Assembly (NCBI GenBank): GCA_964016885.1
Contig: OZ024745.1
Span: 131,068,001-131,132,000, forward strand
Source of the DNA: Eledone cirrhosa
Lineage: Eukaryota
Direction of reading: 5' to 3'
Length of the DNA: 64,000 nt
Shown here piece after piece: positions 15,623 to 56,916 of this stretch. The translations under genes were made by a program, and so were the position numbers. Position 1 is the stretch's first letter; each line of letters starts with the position of its first letter. Below the pieces are notes generated by a model. That model was not told the DNA's origin. It was given only the letters and a program-made list of their open reading frames with translations, and ran no database searches.

Positions 15623-15728
15623 TTGTTATATTTGGGGAGGGTCATATTGTTATAATTTTGCCAGAAATAATAATTGTTTCTACTTTTTGGCAATATTATA
15701 ACAATATGACCCTCCCCAAATATAACAA
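15623..15728. mobile_element. Short fold-back element with TTGTTATAYTTGGGGAGGGTCAT termini
   Basis: Arms TTGTTATATTTGGGGAGGGTCATATTGTTATAAT / ATTATAACAATATGACCCTCCCCAAATATAACAA. Confidence 0.8.
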
Positions 15729-16266
15729 TATATATAGATGTATATAAGTTGACAGGACTAGCATGGGTTTCACTGCTAGCACCGGTTGCATCTCAGCGTA
15801 TTCAATAGGTAATGTTAAGTAAACTCCCAGAGTAGACACATAGTTATTTGATTTAATACAACACATGTAAATAGATACCTTTTATCTATAGCAGAACTGA
15901 AAACACATTCACTGTTTCGTTTGGTTATATAAGGTGTTTCGTAGTCTAATAACATAGTCAATGATGACAACTTATTTTAGGACATCATCATCATCATCAT
16001 TACACATCCACTTCCTTGCTTGCAAGGGTGGGACGGGTCCTATTCAGCACAGCATATATATATATATATATAATTTGTGGTTAAACAACAACAGTAATCT
16101 GCAATGATTACACAAGTATGGTTGATATTTTATATTCAGTTTCTAACAGGTTGAGTAATGGAGTTAAATATTCCTTAGTTGTCTAGGGAGGTGCTCACAG
16201 TCAGCTGAAATAATAGAGACTACAAGCACGTGTGTGCATATATATATATATGCACGTGTGTGCATG

Positions 16267-16299
<33 letters not shown>

Positions 16300-16638
16300 G
16301 TGCATGGAAGGGAAGAAGAGGTATGCATGCAGTGGGTAAAATCTGTTTCTACAAAGGGAAACAGAAACCCCACCCAAAATATTAGTCTCTACTTTAGAAT
16401 AAAGAACATTATCAGCCATATGTAAGGCTGAGGTTTCTAATCTAGTTCACGCTAACACAGTTCTAAACAATATCTTGTAACTTATAAGAAAGAGTTTGTA
16501 CTGCAAAGCAATAAAGTGAGATAAGAAAGCAATACAGTCTCAAAGACAACACTAGATGTCTATATATATATGTAATAAATATTTGCTCTATGGGGTTTAT
16601 ATATATATATATGTATATATTATATAGATAATATATAT

Positions 16639-16670
<32 letters not shown>

Positions 16671-16690
16671 GCACATATACATATATAGAT

Positions 16691-18087
16691 AGCAGTCAGC
16701 AAAGTTAGGATTAGCAATGAGTATAGCGAGGAATTTAGCGTACAGGTTGGTGTCCACCAGGGCTCTGTTCTTAGCCCTTTCCTGTTCATCATAGTCCTGC
16801 AGGCAATAACGGAGGAGTTTAAGACCGGTTGCCCATGGGAACTCCTGTATGCAGATGATCTCGCACTTATAGCTGAATCTATGGTAGAACTAGAGAAGAA
16901 TTTCCAAACTTGGAAGCAGGGACTAGAAAGAAAGGGTCTCAAAGTCAACATGACAAAGACTAAGGTCCTTGTAAGTAGACGAGAAAACAGAACCCAGATC
17001 CCCTCAGGGAAATGGCCTTGCTCAGTATGTAGGAAAGGTGTAGGTAGGAACTCCATTCTCTGCCCCAAATGCAAACAATGGGTACACAAGAGATGTAGCA
17101 AGATCTCAGGAAGCTTAATTAAGAATGTAAGCTTCACATGTAGCAGCTGTGCTGGGACAGCAAGCAGCAAACAGCCACAGGAAACAAGCACCACCAATCT
17201 CTGGGCGGGCTCTGTAGAAACAGTAGACAGCTTCTGCTACCTAGGTGACCGAATTAGCAGCGGAGGTGGGTGTTCAGAAAGTACAATAATTAGGGTAAGA
17301 AGTTCAGGGAACTACTGCCACTGCTAGCTGCAAAAGGCTTCTCCCTCAAAATGAAAGGCAGACTGTATGATGCATGTATCCAAACAGCAATGTTACATGG
17401 TAGTGAGACCTGGGCGCTGAAGGACTTACGTAGATTAGAAAGAAACGAAGCCTGCATGCTCCGATGGATGTGTAATAGTAATATACGCAAACGGCAAAGC
17501 ATAAATGAATTGAGAGAGAGACTGAGCATCAGAGGAATCAAATGCTGTGTGCAGGAGAGGCGGATGCATTGGTATGGACATGTGATACATATGAAGGATG
17601 ACAGCTGCATAAAAAGGTGCAGAGCACTAGAAGTCAATGGAAGCCGCGGAGTGGGGAGACCCAAGAAGACCTGGGATGAGGTGATAGGGGCCGACCTTAC
17701 CTAGTTGCACCTCTCAAAGGCAATGACACACGACCGTGACCTCTGGCGTCACACAGTAATACAGAGTACCCGACCTCCCATGGGTACAAGCTGAAGCATA
17801 TAGACAATATGCCGCCACACCCTCCCACTGCAAAGTGGTGGTGGAGGTGCCACGGCCAAAAAGCACCCAGCCCACACTGTAAAGTGGACGTGTAGGCGCC
17901 ACGGAAAAAAAGCACTCACTGCAAATGAGGTTGGTGTTAGGAAGGGCATCCAGCTGTAGAAATCAAGCCAAAATCAGTTCCTGTATGAGCAAGGCATGGT
18001 CAGCCGACCAGACACTGCTCACAACAGGACAACCCGTCTAACCCATGTTAGCATGGAAGAACGGACGTAAAACGGTGATGATGATGA
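16691..18087 (+). mobile_element. 5'-truncated RTE LINE (frameshifted)
   Basis: RT motifs GVHQGSVLSPFLF and LLYADDL, Cys-rich insert WPCSVC..CPKC..WVHKRC, C-terminal GRPKKTW, (GAT)n tail. Confidence 0.93.
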
Positions 18088-18099
18088 TATATATAATAT

Positions 18100-18310
18100 T
18101 CATTTCATTTCATGTCCGCTTTTCCCTGCTTGCAAGGGTGGGACGGGAACTGATTCTGGCTTGATTTCTACAGCAGGATGCCCTTCCTAACACCAACCTC
18201 ATTTACAGTGAGTGCTGGGTGCTTTTTTTCCATGGTGCCTACACGTCAACTTTACAGTGTGAGCTGGGTGCCTTTTTACCATGGCACCTCCACGACTACT
18301 TTGCAGTGGA
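18100..18310 (-). mobile_element. RTE 3'-end fragment, tail-to-tail with the preceding LINE
   Basis: Reverse complement of ~17825-17980. Confidence 0.8.
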
Positions 18311-18561
18311 ATGATAGGGACCCTAGTCCTATCATCTCATTTCTACAGCTGAGTAAACTGGAGCAATGTGAAATAAAGTGTCTTGCTCAAGGAAACAACA
18401 TATCACCTGGTCTGAGAATTGAACTCACAACCTTTCAATTGCAAGGCCAATGCTCTAACCACTAAGCCATGTGCCTCCTTGTTTGTTTGGGCCCATAACA
18501 CCTGATGGAGTCATAGGGGTATATATATATATTATATAGATAATATATATATATATATATA

Positions 18562-18751
18562 TCATCATCATCATCATTGTTTAACGTCCATCTTCCACGC
18601 TAGCATGGGTTTGGACGGGAATTTTCCCACTTGAGGCAAGATTGGTTGTCTTGCTCGTATGGGACTGTCTGGTGGGTTTTCTACAGCTGGATGCACTTCC
18701 TAACACCAACCACGTTTACAGTGTGGACTGGGAGGTTTTTACCGTGTTACC
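18562..18751 (-). mobile_element. Inverted RTE 3' end fused to the 5' end of the next LINE
   Basis: Reverse complement of ~20050-20238. Confidence 0.85.
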
Positions 18752-20238
18752 AAGGTTAGAATTAACAACGAATATAGTGAAGAGTTTAGCGTAAAAGTTG
18801 GTGTTCATCAGGGTTCCGTTCTTAGCCCCCTACTATTTATTATTGCCCTTCAGGCTATAACAGTGGAGTTCAAGACCGGCTGCCCATGGGAACTCCTATA
18901 TGCAGATGATCTAACACTCATAGCTGAATCAATGGCCGAACTAGAGAAGAAATTCCAAATATGGAAGCATGGCCTAGAATCAAAAGGCCTTAAAATTAAC
19001 CTGTCTAAGACTAAAGTTCTAGTTTGTAGGAAGGAAAATAGGGCGCCGGTCCCTTCCGGCAAATGGCCATGCTCAGTGTGTAGGAAAGGAGTAGGTAGAA
19101 ACTCCATTTTATGTCCCAAATGCAAAGTATGGGTGCATAAAAGATGTAGTGGGATCACAGGTAAGCTAACTAAGAACATAGATTTTATATGTGGCCGGTG
19201 CTCTGGTGCAATAAGTAGCAGCAAGTGCCCACAGAATACTAGCTCATTCCATTGCACAGATGGTTCTATAGAAATAGTGGACAGCTTCCGTTACCTAGGT
19301 GACAAAATCAGCAGTGGGGGAGGCTGCTCTGAAAGTACAGTAGCTAGAGTCAGAACTGGATGGAAAAAGTTCAGAGAGCTTATACCACTATTAGCCGCTA
19401 AAGCGTTCTCCCTAAAAATGAAAGGCAGGCTGTATGATGCCTGCATACGAACAGTAATGTTGTATGGCAGTGAGACCTGGGCATTGTGTGCAGAGGATAT
19501 ACGCAGACTGGAGAGGAACGAAGCTTGCATGCTCCGCTGGATGTGTAATAGTAATATATGTGAACAGCAAAGCATAAACGAACTAAGGGAAAAATTAGAA
19601 ATAAGAGGGATCAGATGTTGTTTACTCGAGAGAAGACTACGTTGGTTCGGTCACGTGATGCGCATGAAAGACGACAGCTGTATAAAAAAGTGCAGGGCAA
19701 TAAAAATAGATGGTAGCCACGGAGTAGGCAGACCCAGAAAAACCTGGGACGACTTGATAAATTCCGACTTCACACACTTACACCTCTCCAAGACAATGTC
19801 ACTGAACCGAGATCTTTGGCGCTACACAGTAATAGAGACGACCCACCTTATCTAAGTACAAAGTGAAACCTACTACAGTCACTAGGCACCTCTAACAAAA
19901 TACACCCCCGTCCCACTACCCCCACCCCATCCACACCACCTCTTCCAATGTAAAGTTATGTTGGTACCACAACATCCAGGCCAAAACAAATAAGGACGTG
20001 TAGGTGTCACGACAAAAAAACACAGTCCACGCTGTAATGTGGCCGTGTAGGTAACACGGTAAAAACCTCCCAGTTCCACTGTAAATGTGGTTGGTGTTAG
20101 GAAGAGCATCCAGCCGTAGAAAACCCGCCAGACAGTCCTATGCGAGCAAGACAACCACTCTTGCCTCAAGTGGGAAAACTCCCGTCCAAACTCATGCAAG
20201 CGTGGAATATGGATGTTAAACGATGATGATGATGATGA
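18752..20238 (+). mobile_element. 5'-truncated RTE LINE with an intact C-terminal ORF (~370 codons to the stop at 19855)
   Basis: GVHQGSVLSPLLF, LLYADDL, FRYLG, MLYGSETW, RLRWFGHV, GRPRKTW; (GAT)n tail. Confidence 0.95.
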
Positions 20239-20329
20239 TTCCTTCCATATACTGTATCGATTGTGTTATTTCTGTTTTCCTTTTACACACACACATATAT
20301 ATATATATATATAATATATATATATATAA

Positions 20330-20408
20330 TTAAATTTAGCTCTGGTACTTACATAGAGCACTCTTCACTCCTATGACTTTTTCAATTTTCTACGGAAACT
20401 TCAATACT
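20330..20408 (+). mobile_element. Tail fragment of the Penelope-like family seen at 34122 and 46584
   Basis: Reverse complement of GTATTGAAGTTTCCG..GAAAATTGAAAAAGTCATAGGAGTGAAGAGTGCTCTATGTAAGTACCAGAGCTAAATTTA. Confidence 0.75.
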
Positions 20409-20455
20409 TATGTGTGTGTGTGCTTGTGTGTGTGGTAATGACAGAATACCACAGC

Positions 20456-20547
20456 AGAGGTCCGACGAGCTTTTGATTCCAGAGTCGGGCCAGATCGATA
20501 CAGATTGAACCTTGAGCTGATCAATAGCGAAACGCACGTCACTACTC
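20456..20547 (+). ncRNA. Type-I hammerhead-like motif (U4C variant core)
   Basis: GGU CCGACGA GCUUUUGAU...AUCAAUAGC GAAA C-GCAC-G UC ACU; GUC cleavage triplet, long stem II, AATAAA immediately downstream. Confidence 0.6.
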
Positions 20548-20579
20548 AATAAACGCAATGAAGACATAACAAATCGCCC

Positions 20580-20619
<40 letters not shown>

Positions 20620-21242
20620 TCTGCTTAGTTCTACCCCTCTAAACCAGAAACTACGCATCGGGTGCTCATTCTGGTGAACCTACAGTAACTGGATGTTACA
20701 TTCCATATATACCACGTGTGTGTGCGTCTGTAGTAGAGAGAGACAAATAGAGTGACAGAGGATCGGACAGATTCATCTTTTTGGTGTCAAATTGGTGCCT
20801 AGAATGTTTAATATTACTTGGGGGCCTTATGCGCAAAACATGATCTTCAGGGCTGCTTTCAGTCTCATACCGTGACATGTCCAACCTAGGGTTGCATAGG
20901 AAACCTTCATAAAACGATGACGGTGATTACATATACACATAAAGGTCTGAATATAAATAAATTATATAGGAGCTCGGTAAATGCCACAGGCTGTTTGTGC
21001 ATCTAAACATGCGGGACGAACTAGAGAGAAGAGATAAGCTGGATGCGAGGAGAAGATGGGCAGTAATTTGGTCAACATGACTGACCCACCAACGTGAGGG
21101 TCGGACGCCATGCTTTGCAGCATAGAGTTCAAATCCCACCGAGGTTAACTTTGCCTTTCATCTTTACGGGGTCGATAAAATAAAGCACCAGAAACGCACT
21201 GGGGTAATTGCTGACCTTAATTAACACCCAGCGAACATTCGA

Positions 21243-21308
21243 CACCGACTGATGACATCAATACCCCTTGATCAATCCTATGTTCACCGATGTGAAACAA
21301 TCTTTGTG
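21243..21308 (+). ncRNA. Possible minimal hammerhead ribozyme
   Basis: CACCGA CUGAUGA CAUC...GAUG U GAAA CAA UC UUUGUG; stem I pairs 5 of 6. Confidence 0.4.
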
Positions 21309-22594
21309 ATGTAATAATGCCTATACATTTGTAAATACTCTAATTGACGATGCTATATCATGTCATTTCATGTGTATAGATAAAAACGGTTTTGCTTGTA
21401 CGTCTAAACATACAGGGGAAAGAGTGTAAAATATACTATATAAATTGCGTATATTTTGGTGCGGTTCCCAGCAATAGTTAATTGTATTTATATCTTCATT
21501 CTGAAAGAATTGTGAACAATATATAATGTTATTTATAGAACTGTATAAAAATTGTATTAAATTGGTAAACTCTATGATGGTAATATGATATGGTTAGGTT
21601 CCGTGCGTAAACATCATCAAAGAGGGTTGACGCCTTTTATCAAACATAGATTTAACAAATTTAAACAACAATAATGGTACTTACCTCGTGTAAAATAAGA
21701 AATGTAAGGATCTAGAAATATAATAAACGGCAATTATTAAGACTGGACAATGTATCTTGTCACATATCTATTCTATTCCTGTATATAGAGAATGAAATAG
21801 CTGTATTTGATAGGGGTTGTTGTCATAGTCGTGGTACTTCCAGTGATAGTAGTGGTGATTACAAATCGGTGATCACAAATTGGTGATCGTTGATCCCAAA
21901 TTGGCCTCAAAAATTTCCGTTGACCCTTCTGGTGTGGTGTCTGACCGATTCTCGCACCTGCTGGTGAATTAAATAGTCGTTTTTGTTAATTTGTTTATTT
22001 TTCTTTCTTTTCTTTTCTTTTCTTTTTCTCTCGCTTTAATCATATATTTTAGTGCATTGTATTTGTAAGATTCCTAGCAATCATTAATTGTATTTATTAT
22101 GTGTGTTTATATATGTTTATATTTTCATTCTGAAAGAATTGTTAACAATTTGTAATGTTACTTATACAACAGTGAATGAAACTATAGGTAGCGGCGATCA
22201 TATTAACATGTGAAACAGTTGCTTCCCATGTTATTAATGGCAAAAATGTCGCTAATTATAGATTTTTTTAATTTAAGCGTCCGGACAAATAAGTTTTGTC
22301 AGTTGAGATGATGGTGCCGAGTATAATAATGATAATAATATTAATGGAATGAAATGAATAGAACGGAGAGTATGTACGTTGAGAAGTTATAATGATAAAA
22401 GAAAGGTGGACTAGGAAACAGTGAAAAACTGTGAGAAGCCGGCTGAAGTTTTATATTCCCCCCTTAGAATCTTGTGATAAATTATATTTACGTGGCGACT
22501 AAAATTTAAAATAGACTTCCGGCCGATTGTGGTTGAGAGAGTTACCTCCCATATCTATAGAATAAATCTTTATAATGTTTTTTCTTATACTTAT

Positions 22595-22820
22595 TCTTCT
22601 TCATCCACTTATTCCTGAGAGGGGGCTGGGTCCAGAGTCCTCAAATACACCTTCCAGTGGGTCCTGTCAGAAGCAACCGCCTTCAATTGACCCGGCTGAA
22701 TCTCCTAGCAAGACCAGCCAAGCTCATGGATGTTATCCAACAATCTTGCTCGGGGTCTACCCCTGGGTCACCTGCCGGTTAATTGTGCCCGTAAAATCTG
22801 TCCAGCGATTCTTTCCTGAT
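22595..22820 (-). mobile_element. RTE (Expander/Rex3-like) 3' fragment
   Basis: Homologous to 25385-26130 and 41675-41810; minus strand encodes a GRPRARL-type LINE C-terminus. Confidence 0.65.
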
Positions 22821-24049
22821 AATGTTTCACTTTTAAAATTAGTTACTCTCGGGACCCAAATAATAATTGGTTTTGGAATAATATCATGTGTGTGTGGAAA
22901 ATCGGTCGTTTTTCTAGGTTGTCTCCGTTGATATTTATAAAAACCAGAATTAGTCATTTAGTTTACATATTGAGATCACATCCATCTTATTTATTATATA
23001 ACGTATGGGATTTCTAGTAATATACTTTTTTTGTCATGTATAATGTTTTTTAATATCTAAATAAAATTAACTATCTCAGGAATGCTAACACTTAAAATAA
23101 AAATTTCGCCGGAGATTCATTAGCAAAATTTAATTAGTAGTGACGGGGATTATTTGAGACCCGAGAGTACATATCCTCAAACGAAAAATTATCATGAATT
23201 TTTTGAAGGGGCACAACTCTGTATAGAATTACATGAAGTTTGTATTTTACCACTTCTCTGCAACTCTTTTATAATACCAAGGAAACTGGGATACCTCCCT
23301 GTCTAACAAACCTCTTAACTTCTTTTAACCAAAGTTTTAAGTTATTGTTTTTTTTTCAAAACTATAAATACTCACATTTATTAAGGTGTTAGAAATAAGG
23401 AATTGAAATATCAATGTTCTCATGAAAGAAAATGGTAATTTTAGAATCGATTGAACGTTAAAAGAATTTAAATAAATATATAGATACACGGTCTCATAAT
23501 TGAAGTTATTTAGTTTTGAGAAGTAACAGATAAAATCACACAAAAGAAAAATTAAACGAGTTTCTAAGTAGTTGTTCGACCTGCTAGAAATAGCAGTCAA
23601 ATTTCATTCTAATTACTTCCAACCGTTTTAGAAAAAGAAACAATTGGATAATGTCACCCTGTATGCACTTTGCGTGGGGAGAAAGAGGGATGCTCATAGC
23701 TGGAATGTTTTTTATTACAAGTTCCGGTATATCAGGACCAACAGTTATTGGGAAATATAAAGAACCAATTATATATAAGCACCTGAATTTACGTTTACTT
23801 ACTTCAAAACAGGAGATTTTCACAAAGTTAGACAACCATGGTGAGTTTATTTGTTACAAGTGATACGTTCTCGTTGAATTATACGTTTAATTTATATTTT
23901 CTGCTCACAAGACTTTTTATTATTCAAAGTTGTATAAATAATATTACAAATTATTTTGATTTTTTTCTTACAGAATAAGAAAAATATAAACACATATATA
24001 ATAAACACAATTGATTTATTGCTAGGAACTTCACAATTATAATGGAAGA

Positions 24050-37278: not shown

Positions 37279-37340
<62 letters not shown>

Positions 37341-37595
37341 ATTATGTAATAAACAACATAAGGCAATTATAAAATAAATGGAATAATTGCCTTATGTTGT
37401 TTATTACATAATAATAATAATTAAGCTCTGTTGCCTACATAGAGCACTCTTTTTTCCAGGACTTTTCCGATGGAATTACTTCATTTACACATATATATAT
37501 ATATATATATATTTCTTAATTGAATTGATTATCATTATCGTTTTTGTGGCAAAAGATAGACAAAGAGGGAAAGAGATAGACAGAGGGAAAGATTT

Positions 37596-37635
<40 letters not shown>

Positions 37636-37639
<4 letters not shown>

Positions 37640-38001
37640 TTGCGAGGTTTTTGATATGAAATCGTGTGTCGAAACAAATATTGTTATACTTGGGGAGGGT
37701 CATATTTGAGTAATATTGCCAGAATTAATAACAGAACCCACTCACTGTTTGGTTGGTTTTCGCTTTTGTGTCTTTTATATCGGTAATCTAATTTATTCGG
37801 TCCTCAATGTTGCCATTGACTGACCAACGGTCAAAAATCATACAGATACAATTTTGACCGTTGGTCAGTCAATGGCAACATTGAGGACCGAATAAATTAG
37901 ATTACCGATATAAAGGACACAGAAGCGAAAACCAACCAAACAGTGAGTGTGTTCTGTTATTAATTCTGGCAATATTACACAAATATGGCCCTCCACAAGT
38001 A

Positions 38002-38005
<4 letters not shown>
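37636..38005. mobile_element. Fold-back element (~155-bp arms, ~15-nt loop) with a one-sided tail
   Basis: 37683-37836 is the reverse complement of 37852-38005; GTTATACTTGGGGAGGGTCAT termini; inserted in (TA)n. Confidence 0.9.
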
Positions 38006-38057
<52 letters not shown>

Positions 38058-39264: not shown

Positions 39265-39971
39265 CTGTTGGAAACTCCGGGAGCTTCCAACAGCAATGGT
39301 TGCATTCTTTAAGGGTATGTCAATATTTATTTGTAAAACTGATCTATATTATATTTTATATGATGAAAGCACACCATAATTTAACTTGGTGTCCTTGAAT
39401 ATGTATAATGAAATAAATATGGTTTTATAAATATAGTTTCCATTTGTTAATATATCGTATTTTATAAATATAGTTTCCATTTGTTAATATATCGTATTTT
39501 TACTCCAATAATTTGTTGAGTGCTTTATATCAGTTATAAAATTATTTGCTTGTTGTATCCCAACAATTTAAATAGAACTTCTACATATATATATATATAT
39601 GTGTGTGGGTCGATAAAATAAAATACCAGTAATACACTGGAGAATTGCTGGTCTTGTGCCAAAAGTAGAAACAATTATTACTGTGTGTGTGTTTCTGTAT
39701 ATGTGTATATGTGTGTATTTATTCTGCAAGATTCTTGATGTGAAATCGTGTGTTGAAACCGATATTGTTATATTTGCGGATGGTTATGTTGCCAATAGAA
39801 AGAAACACACACATATATATATAAGTTAAGGGCCGAAACACTCGCTTGCGGGAGGGTTTCTTTGAAGATCTTCAGCTGTCCAGCTCTCCTGAGACTTTCT
39901 TACCAACACACACATATAATTTTCTAATGATTTACCTTGTTCTTGAGGATGAAATCCTCGTGGAGTTAAGA

Positions 39972-40276: not shown

Positions 40277-42458
40277 ATTTATGCTCCTGCCAAGTTGATT
40301 TTTTTTATTTATTATTATTATTAGGCAGTATCGGTAGATCGTTAGACACCATGCTTTGGCAGCATAGTTACGCCCCTTTACGATCTGAGTTCAAATCCCG
40401 CCGAAGTTAGCTTTGCATTTCATCCTTACGGGGTCGATAATATAAAGTACCAGTCACGCACTGGGGTCGATTTAATCAACATTCCCCTCCCCCAAAATTG
40501 CTGGCCTTGTACCTATATAAGAAACCATTTTTATTTGGTGGTTTGACAGTATCGGTAGAGCATCAGACACCATGCTTTGCAGCATAGTTATGGCCCTTTA
40601 CTTTATGGGTTCAAATCCCGCCGAGGTTAACTTTGCCTTTCATCCTTACGGGGTCGATAGAATAAAGTACCAGCAATGCACTGGGGTAATTGCTGATCTT
40701 GTGCCAAAAGTAGAAACATTATTATTTGTCAATGAAACATGTGTCCAACATGAAGGTACACACATATCAATCTTGAATGCGTGACTTACTCTTGGGTCTC
40801 AAATAATCACTCCCCTCACTTCCTGCTTATTTATTTTTCAACCCCCTCTCTGCTTATTAAATGTTGCTAATCTATCTGCAGCAAAATTTTATTTTAAGTG
40901 GTCGCATTCCTGCGACAATTTTATTTAGACATTAAAAAACATTATACATGACAAAAAATGTACATTACTAGAAATCCTATACATTATAAAATAAACAGGG
41001 TGGGTTGGAGTCTCAACCCACCCTATTTATTTTATAACATATGGGATTTCTAGTAATGTACATTTTTGTCATGTATAATGTTTTTTAATGTCTAAATAAA
41101 ATTGGTGCAGGAATGCTAAAACTAAACGACTAATTCTGGTTTTTTAAAAAAAATCAACAGACAGCCTAGAAAAATTACCCATCCTCATCCCCCTTATATC
41201 ACGCCTGGAAGGACACATTAGTTAATAGAGTTCTAGATACCTTCACAAAAAATGTGATGGTCATAGCAAGAAAGCTTTTGATTATAAGTCTGTGTGGAGG
41301 CACGTGGCCTAGTGGTAAGGGTGTTGGACTTACGATCATAATGTTGTGGGTTTGATTCCTGGGCTGCGTTGTGTGTTGTGTTCTTGAGCAAAATACTTCA
41401 TTTCACGTTGCTCCAGTATACTCAGCTGAAAATGTGTATCACCTGCAATAGATAGGGGGTTTAACTCTGCAATGGACTGGCATCCTGTCCAGGGGGCTGT
41501 CTTGTACTTTGTCACTTCACAAAACTTAAACTGGGATAAGTACCAACCTGATGAGCTCGAGACAGACTTTAACAATCAGGGTTGTTCTGGGGCTAAACAA
41601 CTACAACCTGATGAATGGTAAAGTTAACCTCCATGTGATTTGATGTTAAAATAATGGAAAGGGATAGCTGCTGCTTCTTTGCCCACTTATTCCTGAGAGG
41701 GTTGTGGGGACAGAGTCCTCAAACACTCCAGCCAGTAGGTCTTGTCAGAAGCAACTGTCTCCAACGGATTTGACTGGATCCCCAAGTGAGACCAGCCAAG
41801 CTCATGGATAGCTGTAACTAAAATACTACAAGACTTCTTTATTCAGGACTTTAATGATTCTGTCATTTCTTCTGCCTTATATTAATAATTCTGTCATTAT
41901 ATCTCATTGATAATGACATTCTTAACTTCCTGTAATGATTCAGCAGAAAATATCTAAAAATGTCTGTCATTTCAAATGTTTACAGTATCTTTACAAATGT
42001 GAAAATTTGCAGTAAAATTTGTAATGAAGACTTTAATTTTTTAAATGATGCTGTCATAATGTTGTTTCTGTACTTTTCAAAAAAATTGTAATAAAGATTT
42101 TAACCCTTTAGTATTTAAACCAGCCATATCTGGCCAGAATTCTCACACCTCTTTCTGTTCAAACCAGCCATAACTGGACACTTATACTTATGTTTAGGTA
42201 TTGTTTTCAAAATAAATGATATCAAAATTTCATAGCTTCGATATTATGTGAGATAAAGCATTTATCATGAAAATACAATAGTAAATATAGCATAATCTAA
42301 ATACTAAAGGGTTAATTCTTAAAATGATATGGTCATAATGCTGTTTTGTACTTTTCAAGAAGAATGTCTTACTAATGCAGTTTCTTGTGGTACAGGATGT
42401 TAAGAATTATTATAATATTCTCTTGTTTTGCAGTAAAAGTTAGCACTTAGCATGACCA

Positions 42459-46563: not shown

Positions 46564-46688
46564 ATATATATATATATATATATGTATTGAAGTTTCCGTT
46601 GAAAATTGAAAAAGTCATAGGAGTGAAGAGTGCTCTATGTAAGTTACAGAGCTAAATTTAATGTATAATAAACAATACAATATAATTA

Positions 46689-46756
46689 CCTCGTTACCAG
46701 AGGTTTCCCGAATAAGACGAATACAAGAAACGTTCTCATTCATTCGTCAGACAAGG
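46689..46756 (-). ncRNA. Type-I hammerhead ribozyme
   Basis: Minus strand reads CCUUGU CUGACGA A UGAAUGAGAACG..CGUCUUAUUCG G GAAA CC-UCU-GG UA ACGAGG; intact core, 6-bp stem I, GUA site. Confidence 0.8.
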
Positions 46757-46762
46757 AAATTG

Positions 46763-46830
46763 CCTTGTCTGACGAACGAATGAGGACGTTTCTTGTATTC
46801 GTCTTATTCGGGAAACCTCTGGTAATGAGG
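46763..46830 (+). ncRNA. Type-I hammerhead ribozyme (sense to the SERAC1 pre-mRNA)
   Basis: CCUUGU(46763-68) CUGACGA(46769-75) stem II GAAA(46812-15) CC-UCU-GG UA (GUA at 46822-24) AUGAGG. Confidence 0.8.
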
Positions 46831-47849
46831 TAATTATATTGTATTGTTTATTATACATTAAATTATATATATATGGTAGTTAAGGGTTGAAACACTTGCT
46901 TGAGGTGGGGTTTCTTTTCTGAAGACCTTCTGCTGTCCAGCTCTCCTGACAGTTTCTTACCACTGATAAGGCAATCCTTCATATATAAGAAAAGATAAGT
47001 GCCTTTCATCACTGGTCTGCTCAGTTAGGACTAGCCTAGAGCTAAATAATAACAATAATGCATTTTAATAGACAATCAATTCCAATCTCAGTAGTTGAGT
47101 TAAATAAGAAAGAAATGTAAAGGCTTCATAAACCCTAAAGGGATTTTAAGATCCTGTAGCTTAACTTCAGTTCCTTGGATTTAATTTCATAAAAAGAACA
47201 TTCCTCTAAGAAATATTGTAAGTCAATGAGACCTCTATGCAGTCACTTGACTTGCTAGGAATAGCAGCCAAATCTTTCAAATTATACTCCCCTATCTTAA
47301 AAACAAAGGGAAGGGTACATTAGATAATGTTGTTTTAGAGATATATATGATTAAAAAAATGGATGGTCATGGCTGTAACACCTTTGATCATAGTTCAACT
47401 CAATTAAGCTTGACTCAGGGCTAAACAAGAACATGTAAAAATAACATTTCATCATCATCATTGTTTTAATGTTCACTTTCCTACTAGCAAGGGTTGGATG
47501 GGTCTACATAGACCAAGTGAGTACTGAAGCAGAGCCAATGATCTCCCAAGCAGGCCAGGGATCTATGTCTCACTTTATGTATGGTCAACGCTCCACCGAG
47601 TGTCATGTGTTTGACACAACTGAGGGTCTTCTCAACCCTCTTGTTTGGCAGGATTTCTACAGCTGGATGCCCTTCCTATCACCAACCACTTTATAGCATG
47701 TACTGTGTGTGTTTATCATATAAATCACCAACATGTATGGTCAATGCTGTTCCAAGTATACAGGAGAGGTTGACATGTCTTTGACACAACAGTTATATAA
47801 AATAAAAGTCTGTTTGATCGTAATTATCTCTTTTAAATGTGTTTTGCAG

Positions 47850-49018: not shown

Positions 49019-49144
49019 CTGGTATTCTACCATGGCTTATGTCTCAGAGTAATGACCACTGGAATCTTCTGAAGTTGGCACAGTCAGAGAGTCGCCTTGC
49101 CCGAATTATTGGAGTCAAGAGACTTGTTCAAAAGACTTGGCAAG
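49019..49144 (+). CDS. SERAC1: SERAC1 exon 5 (end uncertain: 49144 with GC donor or 49147 with GT donor)
   Basis: CCACAG|..WNLLKLAQSESRLARIIGVKRLVQKTWQ, aligning to human [22 protein letters not shown]..HW. Confidence 0.85.
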
Positions 49145-49513
49145 GCAGTTATTATTTTTTTTTTTCTGTTGTTTGTTTATCTTTCTCTTTTGTTTGTTGT
49201 TTGACAACTTGAGCTTGTGACAATTAAGGTGCTGACAGTAGCTTTAGAAATTATGTTCAGGCTTTACCTCATAATTATCTCACATAATATCGAATCTATG
49301 AGATTTTAATATTACTTATTTTGAGAACAATACCTTAATGTCAGTATGAATGGCCAGTTACAGCTGGTTTGAACAGAAAGAGGTGAGAGAATTCTGGCTG
49401 GATATGGCCAGTTTAAATGCTAAAGTGTTAAAGTATCGCTAGAAATTATGGGGAACATCCAACCCTTGCTACCAGGGAAAGCAGACATTAAAATGACAAT
49501 GATGATCATCATC

Positions 49514-49730
49514 TCTCTATATATAAAAGCGAAACTGTCTGTATGTAGGCGATGCATTTCCACAGTTTCCATCCAATTTTGTTCAAATTTGATACATAGG
49601 CTATTTAGATCCCAGAGCATGTCAGCATATAGTTTAAATCTTTCTCTCCCCTAAAATACCAGAATTCTGGGGCTATTTAAAGCCGTGTTGAGAAGTGAAG
49701 GTGTGCCCAACAATGACAGTCTCTTGCTAG
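49514..49730 (+). mobile_element. Non-autonomous Helitron-like element
   Basis: 5' TCTCTATATATAAAAGCGAAACTGTCTGTATG; 3' ...TGCTAG|T. Confidence 0.55.
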
Positions 49731-50439
49731 TCTTCAATAAAAAGTGAATAGCATCCCAATTCCAATGTTTTAAGACTAAATTCCATGTGATACCCAGGTA
49801 TATGATAGTTAAGTTAAAGTCATCCCAACTTGTAAGGCCTCAGGCTAGAGCTTATCCCAGTAATTAAAAGTACAATATTCCCTTTTAAACAGGTCCCAGT
49901 TTCTGCAGTACTAATTTATTTTCAGCTGAGTGAACTAGAGGTATGTGAAAAAAGTGTCTTGCTCAAGGACACAATATGCCACTCATCCTAGAAATCAAAT
50001 CCATGACTTTATGATCCACACTTTATCCTAACCACCAGGCCACACACCTTCACTGATATGATAGTTTTGAGTAAAAATAATACTTCAACCTTAACTGCTT
50101 ACTTTGTCCAAAACTGAAGCTACATTGACAATGTAGTACTGCTCACATATGAAAGAGATATAAGAGGAAGAATGAACCTCAGTACTAAACTGGTACTATA
50201 TTTTTTATTGATCTTAAAATGATGAAAGGCAAAGTTGACCTCATTCTTACTACTTTATCATCTCTATATCAATTATCTTATCTAGTCATTCAGATGAAAG
50301 ACCCTGTCCAAAATATAAGATATTTTATTTTCATTGCAACTTAGAATATCTATTTTTGCTAACTTTTACTTCTACCTCTCAGCTATTCATTTTAATTTGA
50401 TGTGTCTTTTCTTATCTAAGAAATCTTTGTTTTATTCAG

Positions 50440-50558
50440 ACTATGAATATCGGGAGATTCGGCAAGCAGCTGACTACAGAACTTTCATTGGTCTTGCACG
50501 GTCAGAAAATGTTGATGGACGCTTTTTCCGGAAACCACCTCAGATTACTGATACACAG
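50440..50558 (+). CDS. SERAC1: SERAC1 exon 6
   Basis: DYEYREIRQAADYRTFIGLARSENVDGRFFRKPP vs human [36 protein letters not shown]/GT boundaries. Confidence 0.95.
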
Positions 50559-51191
50559 GTAATATTACGTTCTGGTTTGTTTGATTAGTCTTGGCCTGTT
50601 CTTATCCTATGTTCATTCTTTGCTAAACGTTAAAAGTTAAAGCCTTACAATGATCTACCTCAACGGGGTCACCGCTTCAGTACTTAATTCTAACTGCTGT
50701 AGAATTAAGCAGATAATGATTTCTAATTCAGATACCGTCTAACTGATGCTAGCATGCAAGATGGACGTTAAACGATGATGATGACACAAGGCCAATAGTT
50801 TGGGAGAGTGCTAAGTCAATTATATTAACCCCATTACTTAACTGGTATTTTATTTTATCAATTTCAGGAAGATCAAAGATAAAGTTGGCCTTGGCAGGAT
50901 TTGTACTCAGAATGTAAAGGGCTGTAATTAAATCCTTCCAAATTTACCATTAATAATTGAAATATAGTGTATTTCATTAGAAATGTGATGACAAAAGGAT
51001 TAATGTAGTCTTAGATACATTAACAACACTGTTGATCACTGCTGGAACGATTTGATCAAATCATAGACCAACTTGACCAGGTGTAACCTAGGGTTAAATA
51101 ATAACAACAACAATTTAATTTGAAAAAAAAAAAAACCGAACAAACAAAAAACACCATTCCTCAACAATGTACACTATTTTTTTTATTTTAG

Positions 51192-51308
51192 AAAGAACTT
51201 TTGACAGAACTACGAGAGTTGCTATCAAGTCTTCCTATTACAGAAGATCCTTGTGTCGGATACTTCACATCTGCAGGAATTCAAAAAAGGAAATCTAGAG
51301 ATTTGGGT
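51192..51308 (+). CDS. SERAC1: SERAC1 exon 7
   Basis: KELLTELRELLSSLPITEDPCVGYFTS vs human [25 protein letters not shown]; donor GTGAGT. Confidence 0.93.
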
Positions 51309-52245
51309 GTGAGTTTTTGAATCCTTTATTTGTTTGATATATTCTTTTAATCTTTTGCTGGTTTAACTCATAAGTCTGTAGCGAAGCATGGCCACAACCT
51401 TGAAGAAGTTTAGTCAAACATATCAATCCCTGTACAATGTTTTTCAAGTCTTGAAATTTATCTCTATTTGTAGACCTACTATATGTTACATAAACAATAG
51501 TAAAGTGTAAGAAGTCACCTGAGTGTGTATTTGTATGTTTGTGTGACTGTATGACTGTATGACTGTATGTTGTGTGTGTGTTTGTGTCTGTCTGTATGTG
51601 TGTGGTTTAGAATAGGTACACCACATATACCGGAATTGTTAACATAATTGTTTATCCATCATGATTGGCCTACAACACGATGTACTGAAAGTTCAATAGC
51701 CCTTTAACATTTAAACCAGGTGTATCCAGCCAGAATTCTCTCACCTGATTCTGTTCAAACTGGCTGTAACCCACTGCTCATACTGACATTAAGGTATGGT
51801 TCTCAAAATAAATAATATCAAAATCTCATAGATTCTATATTATGTGAGATAATTATGTAAGGTAAAATGTTTACCGTGAAAATACAATAGTAAATATAGA
51901 GTAAATACTAAAGGGTTAAGATGCCAAAAGAACAACAAACCTTCACACTAGATATAAACTGCAAATGTGATGGAATTGTCTGCTGGGATTGTCAAGCATT
52001 TGTGGGTAAGTCATTGAAGGAGAAAGACGCTGTCCTGGTGAGGGTTTATCTAACTCGTGCCAGCATGAAAAAAGGGATATAAAAACGACTATGATGATGA
52101 TGAGGAGGATGATGGCGATTGTGATGATTCTAAGTGAGACATGTCAGTTGTTTCGACTTGTTAGACATTTGTGTGCTTATCTGTAGCTGTTTGTAAACAT
52201 TTTGATATTGAATTATTGAATTATTTTATTTTTTTATTTTTTCAG

Positions 52246-52365
52246 AGATTGTTCTGGAATCTAGAAAACGCTGACAGTGTTGAAGATATAAATACAGATA
52301 ATGCTGCAAACTCTGAGCTGAACATCCTAGAGAGTCTTCTGGAGGCCATCTTGAGACAGTCAACT
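52246..52365 (+). CDS. SERAC1: SERAC1 exon 8
   Basis: TTCAG|RLFWN...LESLLEAILRQST|GTAAGT; aligns to EMFCLEAIVKHSE. Confidence 0.9.
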
Positions 52366-52747
52366 GTAAGTAGGCAATTGATACTCATGATAAAAAGCAC
52401 CCACACCACCTGGTAAGGTGGTTAGTGTTAAGAAGAACATCTGGCTGTAGAAAATCAAGCCAAAATTGGATCATATGAATATGACAATAGTCACCTGACC
52501 TTGCTAGCCTCGTAATGTGACAGCCTATCTAACCCATGCTAGCATGGAAATAGTTAAGCAGTGATGGTAATGATATATAAATTATTTTTTTCGTGTCATT
52601 ACTGGACCTTTTTTCTGTTTCTCTATTGTGATCATGTCTCTATTTGTGCCCCCGAAGAAGGGCTTAAGCCCAACACGTCAAACTTCTTTTCCTCTTTCCA
52701 ATATAAAGCGTGAAACTAAGACTTTTTGTACCTCTGTTGTCTCCTTG

Positions 52748-52797
<50 letters not shown>

Positions 52798-52807
52798 GTG
52801 TACACAC

Positions 52808-53572
52808 GTATCAGGGATCTGGTGTCGTATCAGAGATCTGGTGTCGTATCAGGGATCTGGTGTCGTATCAGAGATCTGGTGTCGGATCTGGTGTTGTATC
52901 AGGGATCTGGTGTCGTATCAGAGATCTGGTGTCGTATCAGGGATCTGGTGTCGTATCAGAGATCTGGTGTCGTATCAGGGATCTGGTGTCGTATCAGGGA
53001 TCTGGTGTCGGATCTGGTGTTGTATCAGAGATCTGGTGTCGTATCAGGGATCTGGTGTCGTATCAGAGATCTGGTGTCGGATCTGGTGTTGTATCAGAGA
53101 TCTGGTGTCGTATCAGAGATCTGGTGTCGTATCAGAGTTCTGGTGTCGTATCAGGGATCTGGTGTCGTATCAGGGATCTGGTGTCGTATCAGAGATCTGG
53201 TGTCGTATCAGAGTTCTGGTGTCGTATCAGGGATCTGGTGTCGTATCAGGGATCTGGTGTCGTATCAGAGATCTGGTGTCGTATCAGGGATCTGGTGTCG
53301 TATCAGAGTTCTGGTGTCGTATCAGGGATCTGGTGTCGTATCAGGGATCTGGTGTCGTATCAGAGATCTGGTGTCGTATCAGGGATCTGGTGTCGTATCA
53401 GAGATCTGGTGTCGTATCAGGGATCTGGTGTCGTATCAGAGATCTGGTGTCGTATCAGGGATCTGGTGTCGTATCAGAGTTCTGGTGTCGTATCAGGGAT
53501 CTGGTGTCGTATCAGGGATCTGGTGTCGTATCAGAGATCTGGTGTCGTATCAGAGATCTGGTGTCGTATCTG
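52808..53572 (+). repeat. 19-bp minisatellite (~40 copies)
   Basis: Unit GTATCAG(G/A)GATCTGGTGTC; open in all three + frames (spurious ORFs). Confidence 0.95.
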
Positions 53573-54355
53573 GAATCCTGGATCAGATCAGGTCTGAGAT
53601 CAGATAAACACAACTCTGTCTAACTGGAATGGTAAATGTGTCAGAAGCAGAAGCAGGAAACTTTAATTATAAGTACAATATTCCATTTTGGTAGTTACAG
53701 TAAAGTGTTAAATTTATCTCACTTATTGTATGTAATGGAGTACTACATATATTATTTGTGTGTATATATTTTAACTCTTTTAATACTAACCTACCTGAAA
53801 CCACTCCTCGTTCTCTGATAAAACTATTCGTTTCCAAGTGTTTATATCTAAATTAAAACCTTCCATCATAATTTTAGCCTCGAACAACATGTGTTGCAGC
53901 ATAGAGTTATGTCCATTTATGGTCTGAGTTCAAATCCCGCCGAGGTTAGCTTTGCCTTTTATCCTTATGGGGTCGATAAAATAAAGCACCAGTAATGCAC
54001 TGGGGGTCGATTTAATTGACTTTCTTCTCTCCCCAAAGTACCAGTAACACACACTAGGGTCAATTTAATCATCTTTCCCCTCCCCTAAAATTGCTGGCCC
54101 TGTGCCTAAATCAGAAGTTAGCTTTACTTTTCATCCTTACAGGGTCAATAAAGTAAAGTACCAGTAACATACTGAGGTCGATTTAATTAACTTTCCCCTC
54201 CACAAAATTGCTGGCTTGTGCCTTAATGAGAAACCATTATTATTATTACGGGGTCGATAAAATAAAGTACCAGTAATGCACTGGGGTAATTGCTGGCCTT
54301 GTGCCAAAAGTAGAAACAATTATTATTATTATTTTTATTGTCTCTTCACTAACAG

Positions 54356-54518
54356 ATTGGCAATAATACAGTAGAAATAGTAGAAAAAGATGGACTGGCT
54401 CTGTTAAGAAGATCCCTACTCAGTTATCCAGACAATGTCCATCTGCAGCAACTCTGTTCCCGTATTCTAGGCAACCTTGCCTTACTTCCAGAACTCCATG
54501 AGAAGATCGTCCAAAGTG
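54356..54518 (+). CDS. SERAC1: SERAC1 exon 9 (ARM-like region)
   Basis: GLALLRR...SRILGNLALLPELHEKIVQSG vs human GLQLLQR...[20 protein letters not shown]. Confidence 0.95.
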
Positions 54519-55016
54519 GTAAGTTCCATTTCTGTATTCCTTCTCTTCTCCTATTCTCTGTTTTATCACTTTCTCAAACTTGCAACTTTCTCTTCTCCTA
54601 TGATTGGCTACAGTAATAACCTTTAAATACTCAGCCATTTAGTCAGTCGGAAATAAACACACTATGCTAATTACTTTCACTTAGATATGTCGAAATTAAA
54701 ATTTCTCTCGTTTTTTTTTCCTTTTGATCCTAATGTAGCTAAGTACAATGTTAATTTAGACTTACTATGAACCATCATCATCATCATCATCATCATCGTC
54801 TGTCTTCCACACTAGCATGAGTTAGACGGGTTTGTCCCATTTAGAAGCAAGTTGGATCGAGTGACCATGTCTTGCCCATATAGGACTGTTTCTGGCTGGT
54901 TTTCTACAGCTGGATGCTCTTCCTAGCGCCAACCACATTTACTGTGTGGGCTGGGTGCTTTTTGTCATAACACCTACACTAACACTTTACAGTGGAAATT
55001 TTGTGGAACCAACATA

Positions 55017-55085
<69 letters not shown>

Positions 55086-55221
55086 CTCAACTAACAGACT
55101 AATTCTAAATTAGCATAAGCACATGTTACTACCTAATTTTCAAATTCACTAACTGTTTGTAAAGAAAGCCTGCTTTGTGTCTCCCTATTTGTATATATAT
55201 GTCTGTCTGTATGCATGAATG

Positions 55222-55254
<33 letters not shown>

Positions 55255-55304
55255 ACATATGGTGTATATATATATATATATATAAACAAAGGTGGTGTGG
55301 TAAG

Positions 55305-56015
55305 ATACCAAGTGGACCATAATGCACCAAAGTACTCAATACTTAGGGTAGTAGTAGAGTGGGTAATATGAAAAGAGTCAGTACCCTGGAGCTCAGCCGT
55401 CGGGGTCCTGACTCTTTAAATATATATACACACACACACGGGCGCGGTCCAGTTTATGATAATGTAGTGTGCACTCTACTAGCAGGCCTAACATCTTCAG
55501 GTCAACAGGTTTAATTAGCCACTTCCTCTGAGGAATCATTTGGTCTGGCTCTGGCCTTTCCTATGTTTTGCTGGTCTCAATATAACAAATCAAAATGCTG
55601 ACCACGTCATTAATGCTTTCATAGACTTGCCTACCCACAGCCTTAGATAAAGATAATTTAATACATTTATTGGGATAAAGCAGAACTAAAACAGCTGACC
55701 ACACGAGGACATTGGAATAAATGTATACCCCCCACCACCACCTCCACCAATCACTGACCACTCGCCGAAAAAAAACGAGAACTTTAAAGACTTTTTTTAT
55801 GTATAGACTGTCTGCCCATATATGGACTCTACTCTTCCCCTTCCTTACTCCCTGAGGATGACAGTTATGTTCCCGCCGCCTGAATACTGGCGATTCAGTT
55901 TGGATCTAGCTGTTGAAACGGCCGGAGCTCAGCCGTTGGGGTCCCAAATCTTTCATATTACCCACTCTACTACCCCAGGTATCGAGTACTCTGGTGAATA
56001 ATGGTCTAACTGGTT
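55305..56015. mobile_element. Penelope-like remnant with inverted ends and a hammerhead-like motif (55847-55928)
   Basis: 55305-55375 is inverted at 55950-56015; direct repeat GGAGCTCAGCCGTYGGGGTCC at ~55388 and 55924; CUCC CUGAGGA U GACAGUUA..UAGCUGUU GAAA CGGCC GGAG. Confidence 0.55.
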
Positions 56016-56200
56016 TTTACCTGCCTCCATTCTGATTTATATATGAATTTATAAGTATAATATATGAAAGGCCATATTGATCTTTAACACTTGTTGGTTG
56101 TTTCTAAATAAACTGGGTTCCCACATGGTCTGCTGGTATATATTGATGTCTGCCACATGGTCTGCTGGTATATATTGATGTCTGTGTATATTTGTTGCAG

Positions 56201-56351
56201 GTTGGGTGAGTATTCTTGTGGAATGGTTAAAATCTGGGGACATAGATGTTTGCCTCAATACAGCACGTGCCTTAGCCAACATGGATATTGACAATGCCTC
56301 TGCCATGTACCATGATGGTGTTTATGTCCTTCATCCCATACACCGATCCAC
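56201..56351 (+). CDS. SERAC1: SERAC1 exon 10
   Basis: GWVSIL..ARALANMD..YHDGVYVLHPIHRS vs human GWVSIM..ARILANLD..YQDGVYVLHPQYRT. Confidence 0.96.
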
Positions 56352-56419
56352 GTAAGTGACTACCTATTTTATTTTCTCCTCAATTAAAAAATATAAATAT
56401 TTATTAAATTTCTTTATTG

Positions 56420-56916
56420 TATTGTTATACTTTGGGAGGGTCATGTTGCCAATAAGAACACATGCACCAGTTCCTTTCACTTCAATTTATTATACTAAAT
56501 TTATAAATTTAGGAATTTATAAATTTCCGGTTGGTTGGTTCCACAACCAGCTGGTTGTTTATATATTGTCAAAGTTCTTTCGTCACACATTCTGTGACGT
56601 CACACAAAAACAAGATGGCGTAGGACAGAACAAAGGAGAGGCACAAAAACAAAGAAAAGAATCCCCAGTCACTGAAGAGGTCACAGAATGTGACGAAAGA
56701 ACTTTGACAATATATAAACAACCATCTGGTTGTGGAACCAACCAACCAACCGGAAATTTATAAATTCCTAAATTTATAAATTTAGTATAATAAATTGAAG
56801 TGAAAGCAACTGGTGCGTGTGTTTCTTATTGGCAACATGACCCTCCCAAAGTATAACAATATCGGTTTCAACACATGTTTTCAGATAAAGAATCTTGCTA
56901 AACAAATTCAGAAACG
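56420..56916. mobile_element. Penelope-like fold-back element (~180-bp arms) with a one-sided tail
   Basis: 56420-56600 is the reverse complement of 56678-56861; tail 56862-56916; flanking direct repeat AAATT(T)CTTTATTGTATT at 56406 and 56917. Confidence 0.88.
56668..56708 (+). ncRNA. Minimal type-I hammerhead ribozyme
   Basis: GUCA CUGAAGA G GUCACA-GAA-UGUGAC GAAA GAAC UU UGAC; intact core; stem I covaries with the copy at 8465-8510. Confidence 0.8.

What the first reader, a model, noticed from the sequence alone, without database searches (positions are those of the whole stretch)
15623..56916. Shared terminal signature TTGTTATAYTTKGGGAGGGTCAT on hairpins with different bodies
Seen: three fold-backs (15623-15728, 37683-38005, 56420-56861) and a solo fragment (~39722-39810) share the same ~23-nt terminus. 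Three of them also share a one-sided extension (GCAAGATTCTTGATGTGAAATCGTGTGTTGAAACCGATA-like), while the internal arms are largely unrelated. Inference: a conserved cis-element (endonuclease/RT recognition tail) used by a family of non-autonomous palindromic elements, mostly in TA-rich sites. This could be an undescribed Penelope-dependent mobile hairpin system.
Basis: partly seen in the sequence, partly recalled or inferred. Interest (0 to 1): 0.72.

Follow-up and report, generated by a model that had tools for sequence, protein, structure and literature searches.

The report
Penelope retrotransposon stumps in octopus microsatellites
The shared end of these hairpins is the first eight codons of the gene of two very abundant Penelope-type jumping-gene families, so the hairpins are ordinary truncated head-to-head insertions of a known class; their one-sided tail likely records two separate copying starts on the element's RNA.

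Summary
The motif is real (7 window hits, 46,529 exact in the 3.0-Gb genome, controls 0). It is not the tag of a separate non-autonomous hairpin family. Read on the other strand it is the start of the ORF (MTLPKYNN) of two autonomous Penelope-like retroelement families, A (1,229 aa) and B (1,210 aa). Both have a telomerase-like RT, a Cys linker and a CCHH GIY-YIG endonuclease (Neptune/Nematis type), and family B has near-identical intact copies. The one-sided extension is the next ~20 codons, the published PLE 'tail'. Bodies differ because they are family-specific UTRs (39% alike) cut at variable points. All four window pieces map onto A or B. Hairpins resembling E3 have different junctions, so each formed anew. 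Inverted pLTR, tail covering the ORF start, hammerhead and (TA)n targeting are all published, and this scan has noted the same architecture before, in this genome and others. What the data add: 34 of 35 head-to-head units carry exactly one tail, ends sit at TAT/ATAT sites matching the target, and the tail-less arm is usually the longer. That favours two RNA-primed cDNAs over the published fold-back idea (inferred, untested).

The parts
15623..15731 (.). E1: short head-to-head pair of family-B-lineage pLTR stumps (arms reach about -28 and -21 from the ATG). Both ends are tail-less, an exception to the one-tail rule.
   Evidence: (88-89% to intact family B)
37635..37858 (-). E2 tailed arm, family B, from -170 through the ATG (37703) to +69; translates to ORF residues 1-23
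   Evidence: 23 of 23 residues identical to P0061
37852..38010 (+). E2 tail-less arm, family B, -143 to +26, followed by (TA)n
39714..39813 (-). Solo, decayed family-A-like tailed end (-23 to +74)
   Evidence: 84% to family A
56420..56601 (-). E3 tail-less arm, family A, -175 to +25
56601..56920 (+). E3 tailed arm, family A, -251 to +84
56837..56920 (+). Start codon and codons 1-28 of the family A ORF: the 23-nt motif (56837-56859) plus the 60-nt tail
   Evidence: 27 of 28 residues identical to the N-terminus of the intact ORF P0003
56667..56709 (+). Minimal type I hammerhead motif (CUGANGA, 6-bp stem II, GAAA, 2-bp stem III, short stem I) on the coding strand; activity not tested
   Evidence: not found by Rfam in other copies
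56612..56620 (+). Short motif kept in the UTR of both families, resembling a YY1 site (label recalled, from no call). Many arms end just at or upstream of it; candidate internal promoter / RNA 5' end (inferred).
56410..56423 (+). Left copy of the target-site duplication of E3 (13-14 nt, partly shared with the element end)
56920..56933 (+). Right copy of the target-site duplication of E3

Best explanation
The four pieces are 5'-truncated insertions of two autonomous Penelope-like retroelement families whose ORF begins with the shared motif, and each hairpin likely forms when both cut ends of an AT-rich target prime reverse transcription on the element's RNA, one at +24 and one about 60 nt further on, and the two cDNAs are then joined head to head. 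Shown: identity with intact RT + GIY-YIG elements, fixed ends at +23 to +26 and +82 to +86 (A) or +69/+71/+84 (B), variable inner junctions, (TA)n targets, an occasional 10-14 bp duplication. Inferred: staggered cutting by the GIY-YIG domain; priming helped by 1-4 nt of TA microhomology; both cDNAs from the same source RNA or locus; most short arms are run-offs or early stops on the 5' part of the RNA, with a likely RNA 5' end near -240 to -254. The motif is conserved across families because it is coding and probably also carries the RT start sites; the bodies differ because the UTRs diverged.
For: Intact copy L083: (TA)n, inverted tail-less arm, partial upstream copy, a 1,229-aa ORF starting at the motif's ATG, UTR, motif + tail, (TA)n. 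Family B: 11 of 11 selected intact ORFs of 1,210 aa start at the motif and differ by 0-23 nt of 3,630, median 9. YVDD, DKSG, CX4CXXC and GIY-YIG with CCHH are present; the three linker Cys are invariant in 45 of 45 aligned proteins. RVT_1 and GIY-YIG match weakly (E 2e-4, 5e-4, below curated cut-offs). The model (pLDDT 89.9) has telomerase RT chains as its top 8 Foldseek hits. A versus B identity: 91% in the motif, 81% motif + tail, 39-41% in the UTR, 64% at the hammerhead; 9 of 14 differences in codons 1-26 are at third positions. In the sample around the first 100 hits, every motif-bearing arm is a colinear 5'-truncated piece of A or B; 31 of 86 A arms and 11 of 39 B arms reach into the ORF. 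34 of 35 head-to-head units have one tail, and all 35 are one family on both sides. In a wider, overlapping and partly selected set 69 of 72 have one tail. The tail-less arm is longer in 17, the tailed arm in 4, equal in 8 of 29 simple units. The only two ATAT sites in the first 200 nt of ORF A (+23, +83) are the two main ends: 168 of 183 terminal A ends score +26 or +86. The arms of one insertion are more alike than arms of different insertions (A: median 4 vs 10 differences per 150 nt, partner nearest or tied in 16 of 40; B: 5 of 5). 13 of 52 A arms that end in the UTR end in a 19-nt stretch at -236 to -254, and none between -163 and -131 around the predicted hammerhead cut at -146. In vitro, PAc cuts and extends both strands and starts at two internal RNA sites that bound the tail (PMC11167929).
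Against: No RNA or biochemical data, so the dual-priming steps are inferred from genomic copies only. Microhomology at the inner junction was not above control (6 of 31 with 2 nt or more, against 13% in control; noisy method), so how the cDNAs join is open. 48 of 118 ends in the sample had no detected partner. Exceptions exist: E1 and two other pairs are tail-less on both sides and L098 has two tails. B has ATAT sites at +15 and +47 that are not main ends, so microhomology is not sufficient. PAc was reported to start without homology to the cut DNA. Likeness of arms could come from later gene conversion. An informative duplication was seen in only 6 of 31 non-TA pairs, some of them TA-like (shuffled mean 0.2, max 2). 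Ends of old solo arms may mark divergence from my two references rather than true stops.
Confidence: 0.93

Rival explanations
1. Same elements, but the palindrome arises by self-priming or fold-back of a single strand (antisense-template self-priming as proposed for rotifer Penelopes), so one arm is a copy of the other.
For: Proposed in PMC3846280 (Discussion). The arms of one insertion are unusually alike. 8 of 29 units have arms equal within 10 nt, several turning at AT-rich palindromes near -50 to -78.
Against: A copied strand cannot gain the tail from a template that lacks it, so the tailed arm should be the longer. It is longer in only 4 of 29; the tail-less arm is longer in 17, by up to 3 kb (L031, L033). 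Some tailed arms stop inside the tail (+59, +67), short of the motif.
Confidence: 0.15
2. A separate family of non-autonomous palindromic elements is copied as whole hairpins by a Penelope protein in trans.
For: Short hairpins far outnumber full copies: 46,529 motif hits against 466 exact family-A read-through sites (different patterns, so only a rough ratio). 16 other loci among the 30 fetched match E3 over nearly its whole length. PLE-derived non-autonomous retrozymes exist (bioRxiv 2026.07.22.740005).
Against: The 23 head-to-head units in the 30 best E3-like loci have different junctions, apart from one local duplicate. Arm lengths run continuously from about 30 nt to 4 kb into the ORF. No tandem hammerhead monomers of the retrozyme kind were seen in the window.
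Confidence: 0.04
3. MITE or Helentron/HINE-type DNA transposon with (asymmetric) terminal inverted repeats.
For: Inverted ends, TA-rich sites and an asymmetric end resemble HINEs and MITEs (recalled).
Against: The interior encodes RT and GIY-YIG, not a transposase or Rep-helicase. The 'TIR' is the ORF start and recurs internally in direct tandem. Inverted arms vary from 30 nt to over 1.4 kb. Duplications seen are 10-14 bp.
Confidence: 0.01

Closest known systems
Endonuclease-bearing Penelope-like elements, Neptune/Nematis type (PMC8557442, passages)
   Same: Single ORF with RT then CX2-5CxxC linker then CCHH GIY-YIG; partial tandems; inverted 5'-truncated copy; tail at one end; hammerhead in the pLTR; (TA)n targets.
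   Different: Tail is 58-60 nt (45-47 nt for a second B site) against the published 30-40 bp. ORFs are 1,210-1,229 aa with an Asn-rich insert. No tree with named references was made, so Neptune versus Nematis is not settled.
Pen2a_Av and related Adineta vaga Penelopes (PMC3846280, passages and Discussion)
   Same: pLTR includes the first codons of the ORF (12 aa, 22 with the tail; here 8 and 28); inverted pLTR; tail on one pLTR; 8-10 bp TSD; Asn-rich inserts.
   Different: Few copies there, tens of thousands of ends here. The paper favours antisense self-priming, which the arm lengths here contradict.
PAc (Poseidon, Anolis carolinensis) in vitro (PMC11167929, parts 1-2 of 4)
   Same: Two RT start sites inside the early ORF bound the tail; both strands cut and extended; AT-rich target; hammerhead cleavage not needed.
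   Different: PAc starts at +111 to +118 in an AC-rich stem loop without homology to the target. Here the ends are at +24 and +82/+83 on TAT/ATAT matching the (TA)n target, and no stable fold was found there (z -0.1 and -1.5). Poseidon lacks the Cys linker.
L1 twin priming (recalled; no call describes it)
   Same: Both target ends prime on the RNA and give a head-to-head inversion.
   Different: In L1 the two cDNAs cover different parts of the RNA. Here both start 60 nt apart and overlap, which gives a palindrome.
Hypothetical protein of Octopus vulgaris P0004
   Same: 67% identical over 90% of the RT-EN region.
   Different: Unnamed as a transposon and cut short in the endonuclease. PMC13282606 lists 31 recently active Penelope-like families in O. 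vulgaris without clade names in its main text.

Membership tests
EN+ Penelope-like element | Single ORF with a telomerase-like RT | tested here: met
   1,229 and 1,210 aa ORFs with YVDD; top 8 Foldseek hits are telomerase RT chains, TM-score about 0.3 over the whole model; RVT_1 weak
EN+ Penelope-like element | GIY-YIG endonuclease in the same ORF | tested here: met
   PF01541 E 1.4e-4 and 4.6e-4, just under the cut-off; conserved Tyr, Gly, His and Asn columns
EN+ Penelope-like element | pLTRs from partial tandems, inverted 5'-truncated copy | tested here: met
   L083, L151, L152, L167, L171 and others
EN+ Penelope-like element | Tail on one end, continuing the ORF | tested here: met
   34 of 35 units; longer than the published 30-40 bp
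EN+ Penelope-like element | Minimal hammerhead motif in the pLTR | tested here: met
   192 occurrences upstream of the motif; in 14 chosen variants stem II is 98.8% paired, with 2 of 6 pairs swapped between A and B, essentially one event; Rfam did not detect it; cleavage not tested
EN+ Penelope-like element | Short variable TSD or microsatellite target | tested here: met
   168 of 254 terminal ends flanked by 12 nt of pure TA; 10-14 bp duplications at E3 and two other clear non-TA sites
Neptune/Nematis | C-terminal EN with CX2-5CxxC linker and CCHH | tested here: met
   C1103/C1108/C1111; C1130, C1135, H1157 and a second His near 1173
Neptune (as against Nematis) | RT phylogeny with named references | not testable with these tools
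   Homologues carry no clade names
Hydra clade | No CCHH, DKT in place of DKG, CxCX5C linker, under 3 kb | tested here: not met
   CCHH present, DKSG, CX4CXXC, unit 4.1 kb
Naiad/Chlamys | N-terminal EN, no canonical hammerhead | tested here: not met
   EN is C-terminal; hammerhead motif present
Penelope/Poseidon | No Cys linker before the EN | tested here: not met
   Linker present
Non-autonomous family (MITE-like or retrozyme) | Dispersed copies share one fixed internal structure | tested here: not met
   Junctions differ among the 23 units in the best E3-like loci, one local duplicate apart
Catalogued Repbase/Dfam family | Match to a library consensus | not testable with these tools
   No such library here; supplements of PMC8557442 and PMC13282606 not seen

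The most novel reading that the evidence does not exclude
These families record a coordinated PLE integration rule: the two target ends are assigned to two different start sites 60 nt apart in the first 28 codons of one RNA, each primed by TA microhomology, with an internal promoter about 240 nt upstream making short run-off cDNAs the main product. That would explain the inverted pLTR, the one-sided tail and (TA)n targeting together, and would contradict both antisense self-priming and homology-free initiation for this clade.
Probability: 0.45. Interest if true: 0.55.

Novelty: new member of a known kind. Interest (0 to 1): 0.3.

Why it matters
As an annotation it is ordinary, but it warns that tens of thousands of MITE-like palindromes in this genome are retroelement stumps. 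For specialists, how PLEs make inverted pLTRs and one-sided tails is named as an open question (PMC8557442). These two families give very many natural products with fixed ends, and family B has near-identical intact ORFs, so the dual-priming and TA-microhomology model can be counted genome-wide and tested in the published in vitro assay.

Tried and rejected
Rfam scan of 9 loci: only microRNA-like noise on TA/CA repeats, no hammerhead. Pfam on the whole 1,229-aa protein: no family; sub-regions gave weak RVT_1 and GIY-YIG. PDB by sequence: two weak bacterial RT hits. Sequencing runs: no RNA holder listed. Laying contigs of four coded runs showed the depth drop past the tail end but nothing on transcription, splicing or RNA ends. 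Junction microhomology test: noisy and not above control; 18 of 49 junctions dropped as unresolved. RNA fold around the two start sites: not more stable than shuffles. The repeat finder on the whole window was swamped by simple repeats. Look-up of earlier findings by sequence: nothing. No exact genome-wide count of family-B read-through sites or of tailed versus tail-less ends was obtained; those ratios rest on samples. Seven paper searches showed no paper naming these octopus families or giving a one-tail count; subscription journals, Repbase Reports and supplements were not seen.
Full report
Observation. The motif is present 7 times in the window with up to 3 mismatches, against 0 in 100 shuffles. 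The three fold-backs E1 (15623-15731), E2 (37635-38010) and E3 (56420-56920) and the solo piece (39714-39813) are as described. The genome G000 (3.0 Gb) holds 46,529 exact matches and none of the reversed pattern. The closest named homologue of the encoded protein is from Octopus vulgaris (67%), so the host is probably an octopod (inference). Among the first 100 hits, 23 neighbouring pairs within 5 kb face inward, 3 outward and 3 the same way.

What the motif is. Longer pairs contain pieces of an ORF that runs toward the motif in both arms. On the coding strand the motif begins with ATG and reads on through the extension. A search with an upstream piece of the ORF found many long open frames. 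L083 is an intact element: (TA)n, an inverted tail-less arm, a partial upstream copy, a 1,229-aa ORF starting at the motif, the UTR, the motif plus 60 more bases, and (TA)n. A second family, B, has a 1,210-aa ORF with the same start. The 11 intact ORFs that I picked from 20 fetched stretches differ by 0-23 of 3,630 nt. A and B are 65% identical over RT and endonuclease; monomers are 4.1 kb. Between A and B the motif is 91% alike, motif plus tail 81%, the UTR 39-41% and the hammerhead island 64%. 9 of 14 differences in codons 1-26 are at third positions, and 21 of the first 28 residues are identical against 32 of the next 92. So the 'signature' is conserved coding sequence, possibly with a second role, and the 'different bodies' are family UTRs.

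Protein. YVDD, DKSG, a CX4CXXC linker and a GIY-YIG with CCHH are present. Pfam matches are weak and absent for the whole protein. The predicted RT-EN model (pLDDT 89.9) has telomerase RT chains as its top 8 hits. By the features given in PMC8557442 (passages) this is Neptune/Nematis type and not Hydra, Naiad or Penelope/Poseidon. No tree with named references could be made.

Window pieces. E3 is family A (-175..+25 and -251..+84) with a 13-14 nt target duplication. E2 is family B (-170..+69 and -143..+26). The solo is a decayed A-like tailed end. E1 is a short B-lineage pair with no tail. E3's coding arm holds a minimal hammerhead motif. Such motifs precede the start motif 192 times in the fetched loci, which overlap in part. 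In 14 chosen variants stem II is 98.8% paired with two swapped pairs between A and B, while only 2 of 5 stem I pairs hold throughout. This fits the min-HHR features of PMC4209133 (passages). Rfam missed it.

Are the hairpins copied as such? The 30 best E3-like loci, E3 itself included, gave 23 head-to-head units, all with one tail, and their junctions differ apart from one local duplicate. In the stretches around the first 100 hits (494 kb) arms run continuously from about 30 nt to 4 kb; 31 of 86 A arms and 11 of 39 B arms reach the ORF. So each hairpin forms at insertion.

Mechanism (inferred). 34 of 35 head-to-head units carry one tail and all 35 are one family on both sides; 48 further ends had no detected partner. 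The one 'two-tail' unit there has an internal read-through end. In a larger, overlapping and partly selected set, 69 of 72 pairs have one tail (2 of these mix A and B), 3 have none, and none within 6 kb has two; L098 has two tails 7.3 kb apart. Ends are fixed: 168 of 183 terminal A ends score +26 or +86, and B ends +26, +84, +71 or +69. In A these are the only two ATAT sites of the first 200 coding bases; B has further such sites that are not main ends. 168 of 254 terminal ends have pure TA outside. The tail-less arm is longer in 17, the tailed arm in 4 and they are equal in 8 of 29 simple units. A fold-back copy cannot gain the tail, so single-strand self-priming (PMC3846280, Discussion) fails for most units. 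The two arms of one insertion are more alike than arms of different insertions, as expected from one RNA or one source locus, though gene conversion would do the same. 13 of 52 A arms that end in the UTR end at -236 to -254, beside a short motif kept in both families that resembles a YY1 site (recalled); none ends between -163 and -131, around the predicted hammerhead cut. The simplest reading is a staggered cut, priming from both ends at the two sites, and head-to-head joining, as allowed by the PAc data where both strands are cut and extended and two internal starts bound the tail (PMC11167929, parts 1-2 of 4). Against: junction microhomology was not above control, duplications were informative in only 6 of 31 non-TA pairs, PAc started without target homology, and there are no RNA data.

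What is known. Inverted pLTR, one-sided tail, partial tandems and (TA)n bias are in PMC8557442 and PMC8969392 (passages). That the pLTR and tail cover the first codons is in PMC3846280 (passages). PMC13282606 (part 1 of 3 and passages) lists 31 recently active Penelope-like families in O. vulgaris; its library and supplements, which I did not see, may hold relatives of A and B. The retrozyme preprint 10.64898/2026.07.22.740005 (part 1 of 5) concerns tandem monomers, a different form. Seven searches showed no paper with a one-tail count or arm-length test. Earlier notes of this scan, read after my analysis, report the same architecture and a similar one-tail rule in this and other genomes; they are not independent support.

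Verdict. New members of a known kind: identity about 0.95, dual-priming detail about 0.5-0.6. Interest 0.3, for the testable mechanism and not for the hairpins themselves.

Noticed in passing
window 8403-8508: Antisense piece of a related pLTR with most of the hammerhead motif, next to a short TA run; matches 69 of 214 fetched loci, best an older B-like copy (L127). A fifth stump that lacks the start motif.
   Followed up: partly
window 46655-46864, 40904-41116, 37334-37419: Other near-perfect palindromes without the motif, each found in 2-7 fetched loci, some beside (TA)n; possibly stumps of other PLE families or MITEs.
   Followed up: partly
window 14888-15090 and 15876-16072: A 200-nt inverted repeat pair (91%) encloses E1; the left arm matches 21 of 214 loci.
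   Followed up: no
window 15575-15612; L026 about 1450-1495: GC-rich short hairpin followed by CTAG and TA just outside the PLE end, like a Helitron 3' end (label recalled); different elements stack in the same TA runs.
   Followed up: no
L153 (G000:C1:132947045-132947576): A 46-nt piece spanning the family A tail end is amplified as a tandem array of at least 12 copies.
   Followed up: no
G000:C4:94669431-94807807 (L088, L090): Several near-full family A units in direct tandem over about 140 kb; candidate source cluster.
   Followed up: no
L090 9716, L096 7821, L172 1302, L034 5821: Further lineages with the same ORF start but different tails and UTRs; more than two families share the motif.
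   Followed up: no
P0003 residues about 245-435; P0061 about 245-410: Long Asn/Thr/His-rich low-complexity insert before the RT in both families, like the Asn-rich inserts of rotifer Penelopes.
   Followed up: no
window 16689-17701 and 18704-19852: Fragments of another, LINE-type RT family, abundant in the fetched loci (RTE-like by recalled motifs).
   Followed up: no
coded runs X5, X6 (organisms B and C): Family B sequence, including a tail-less end running into TA, is present in two other organisms.
   Followed up: partly
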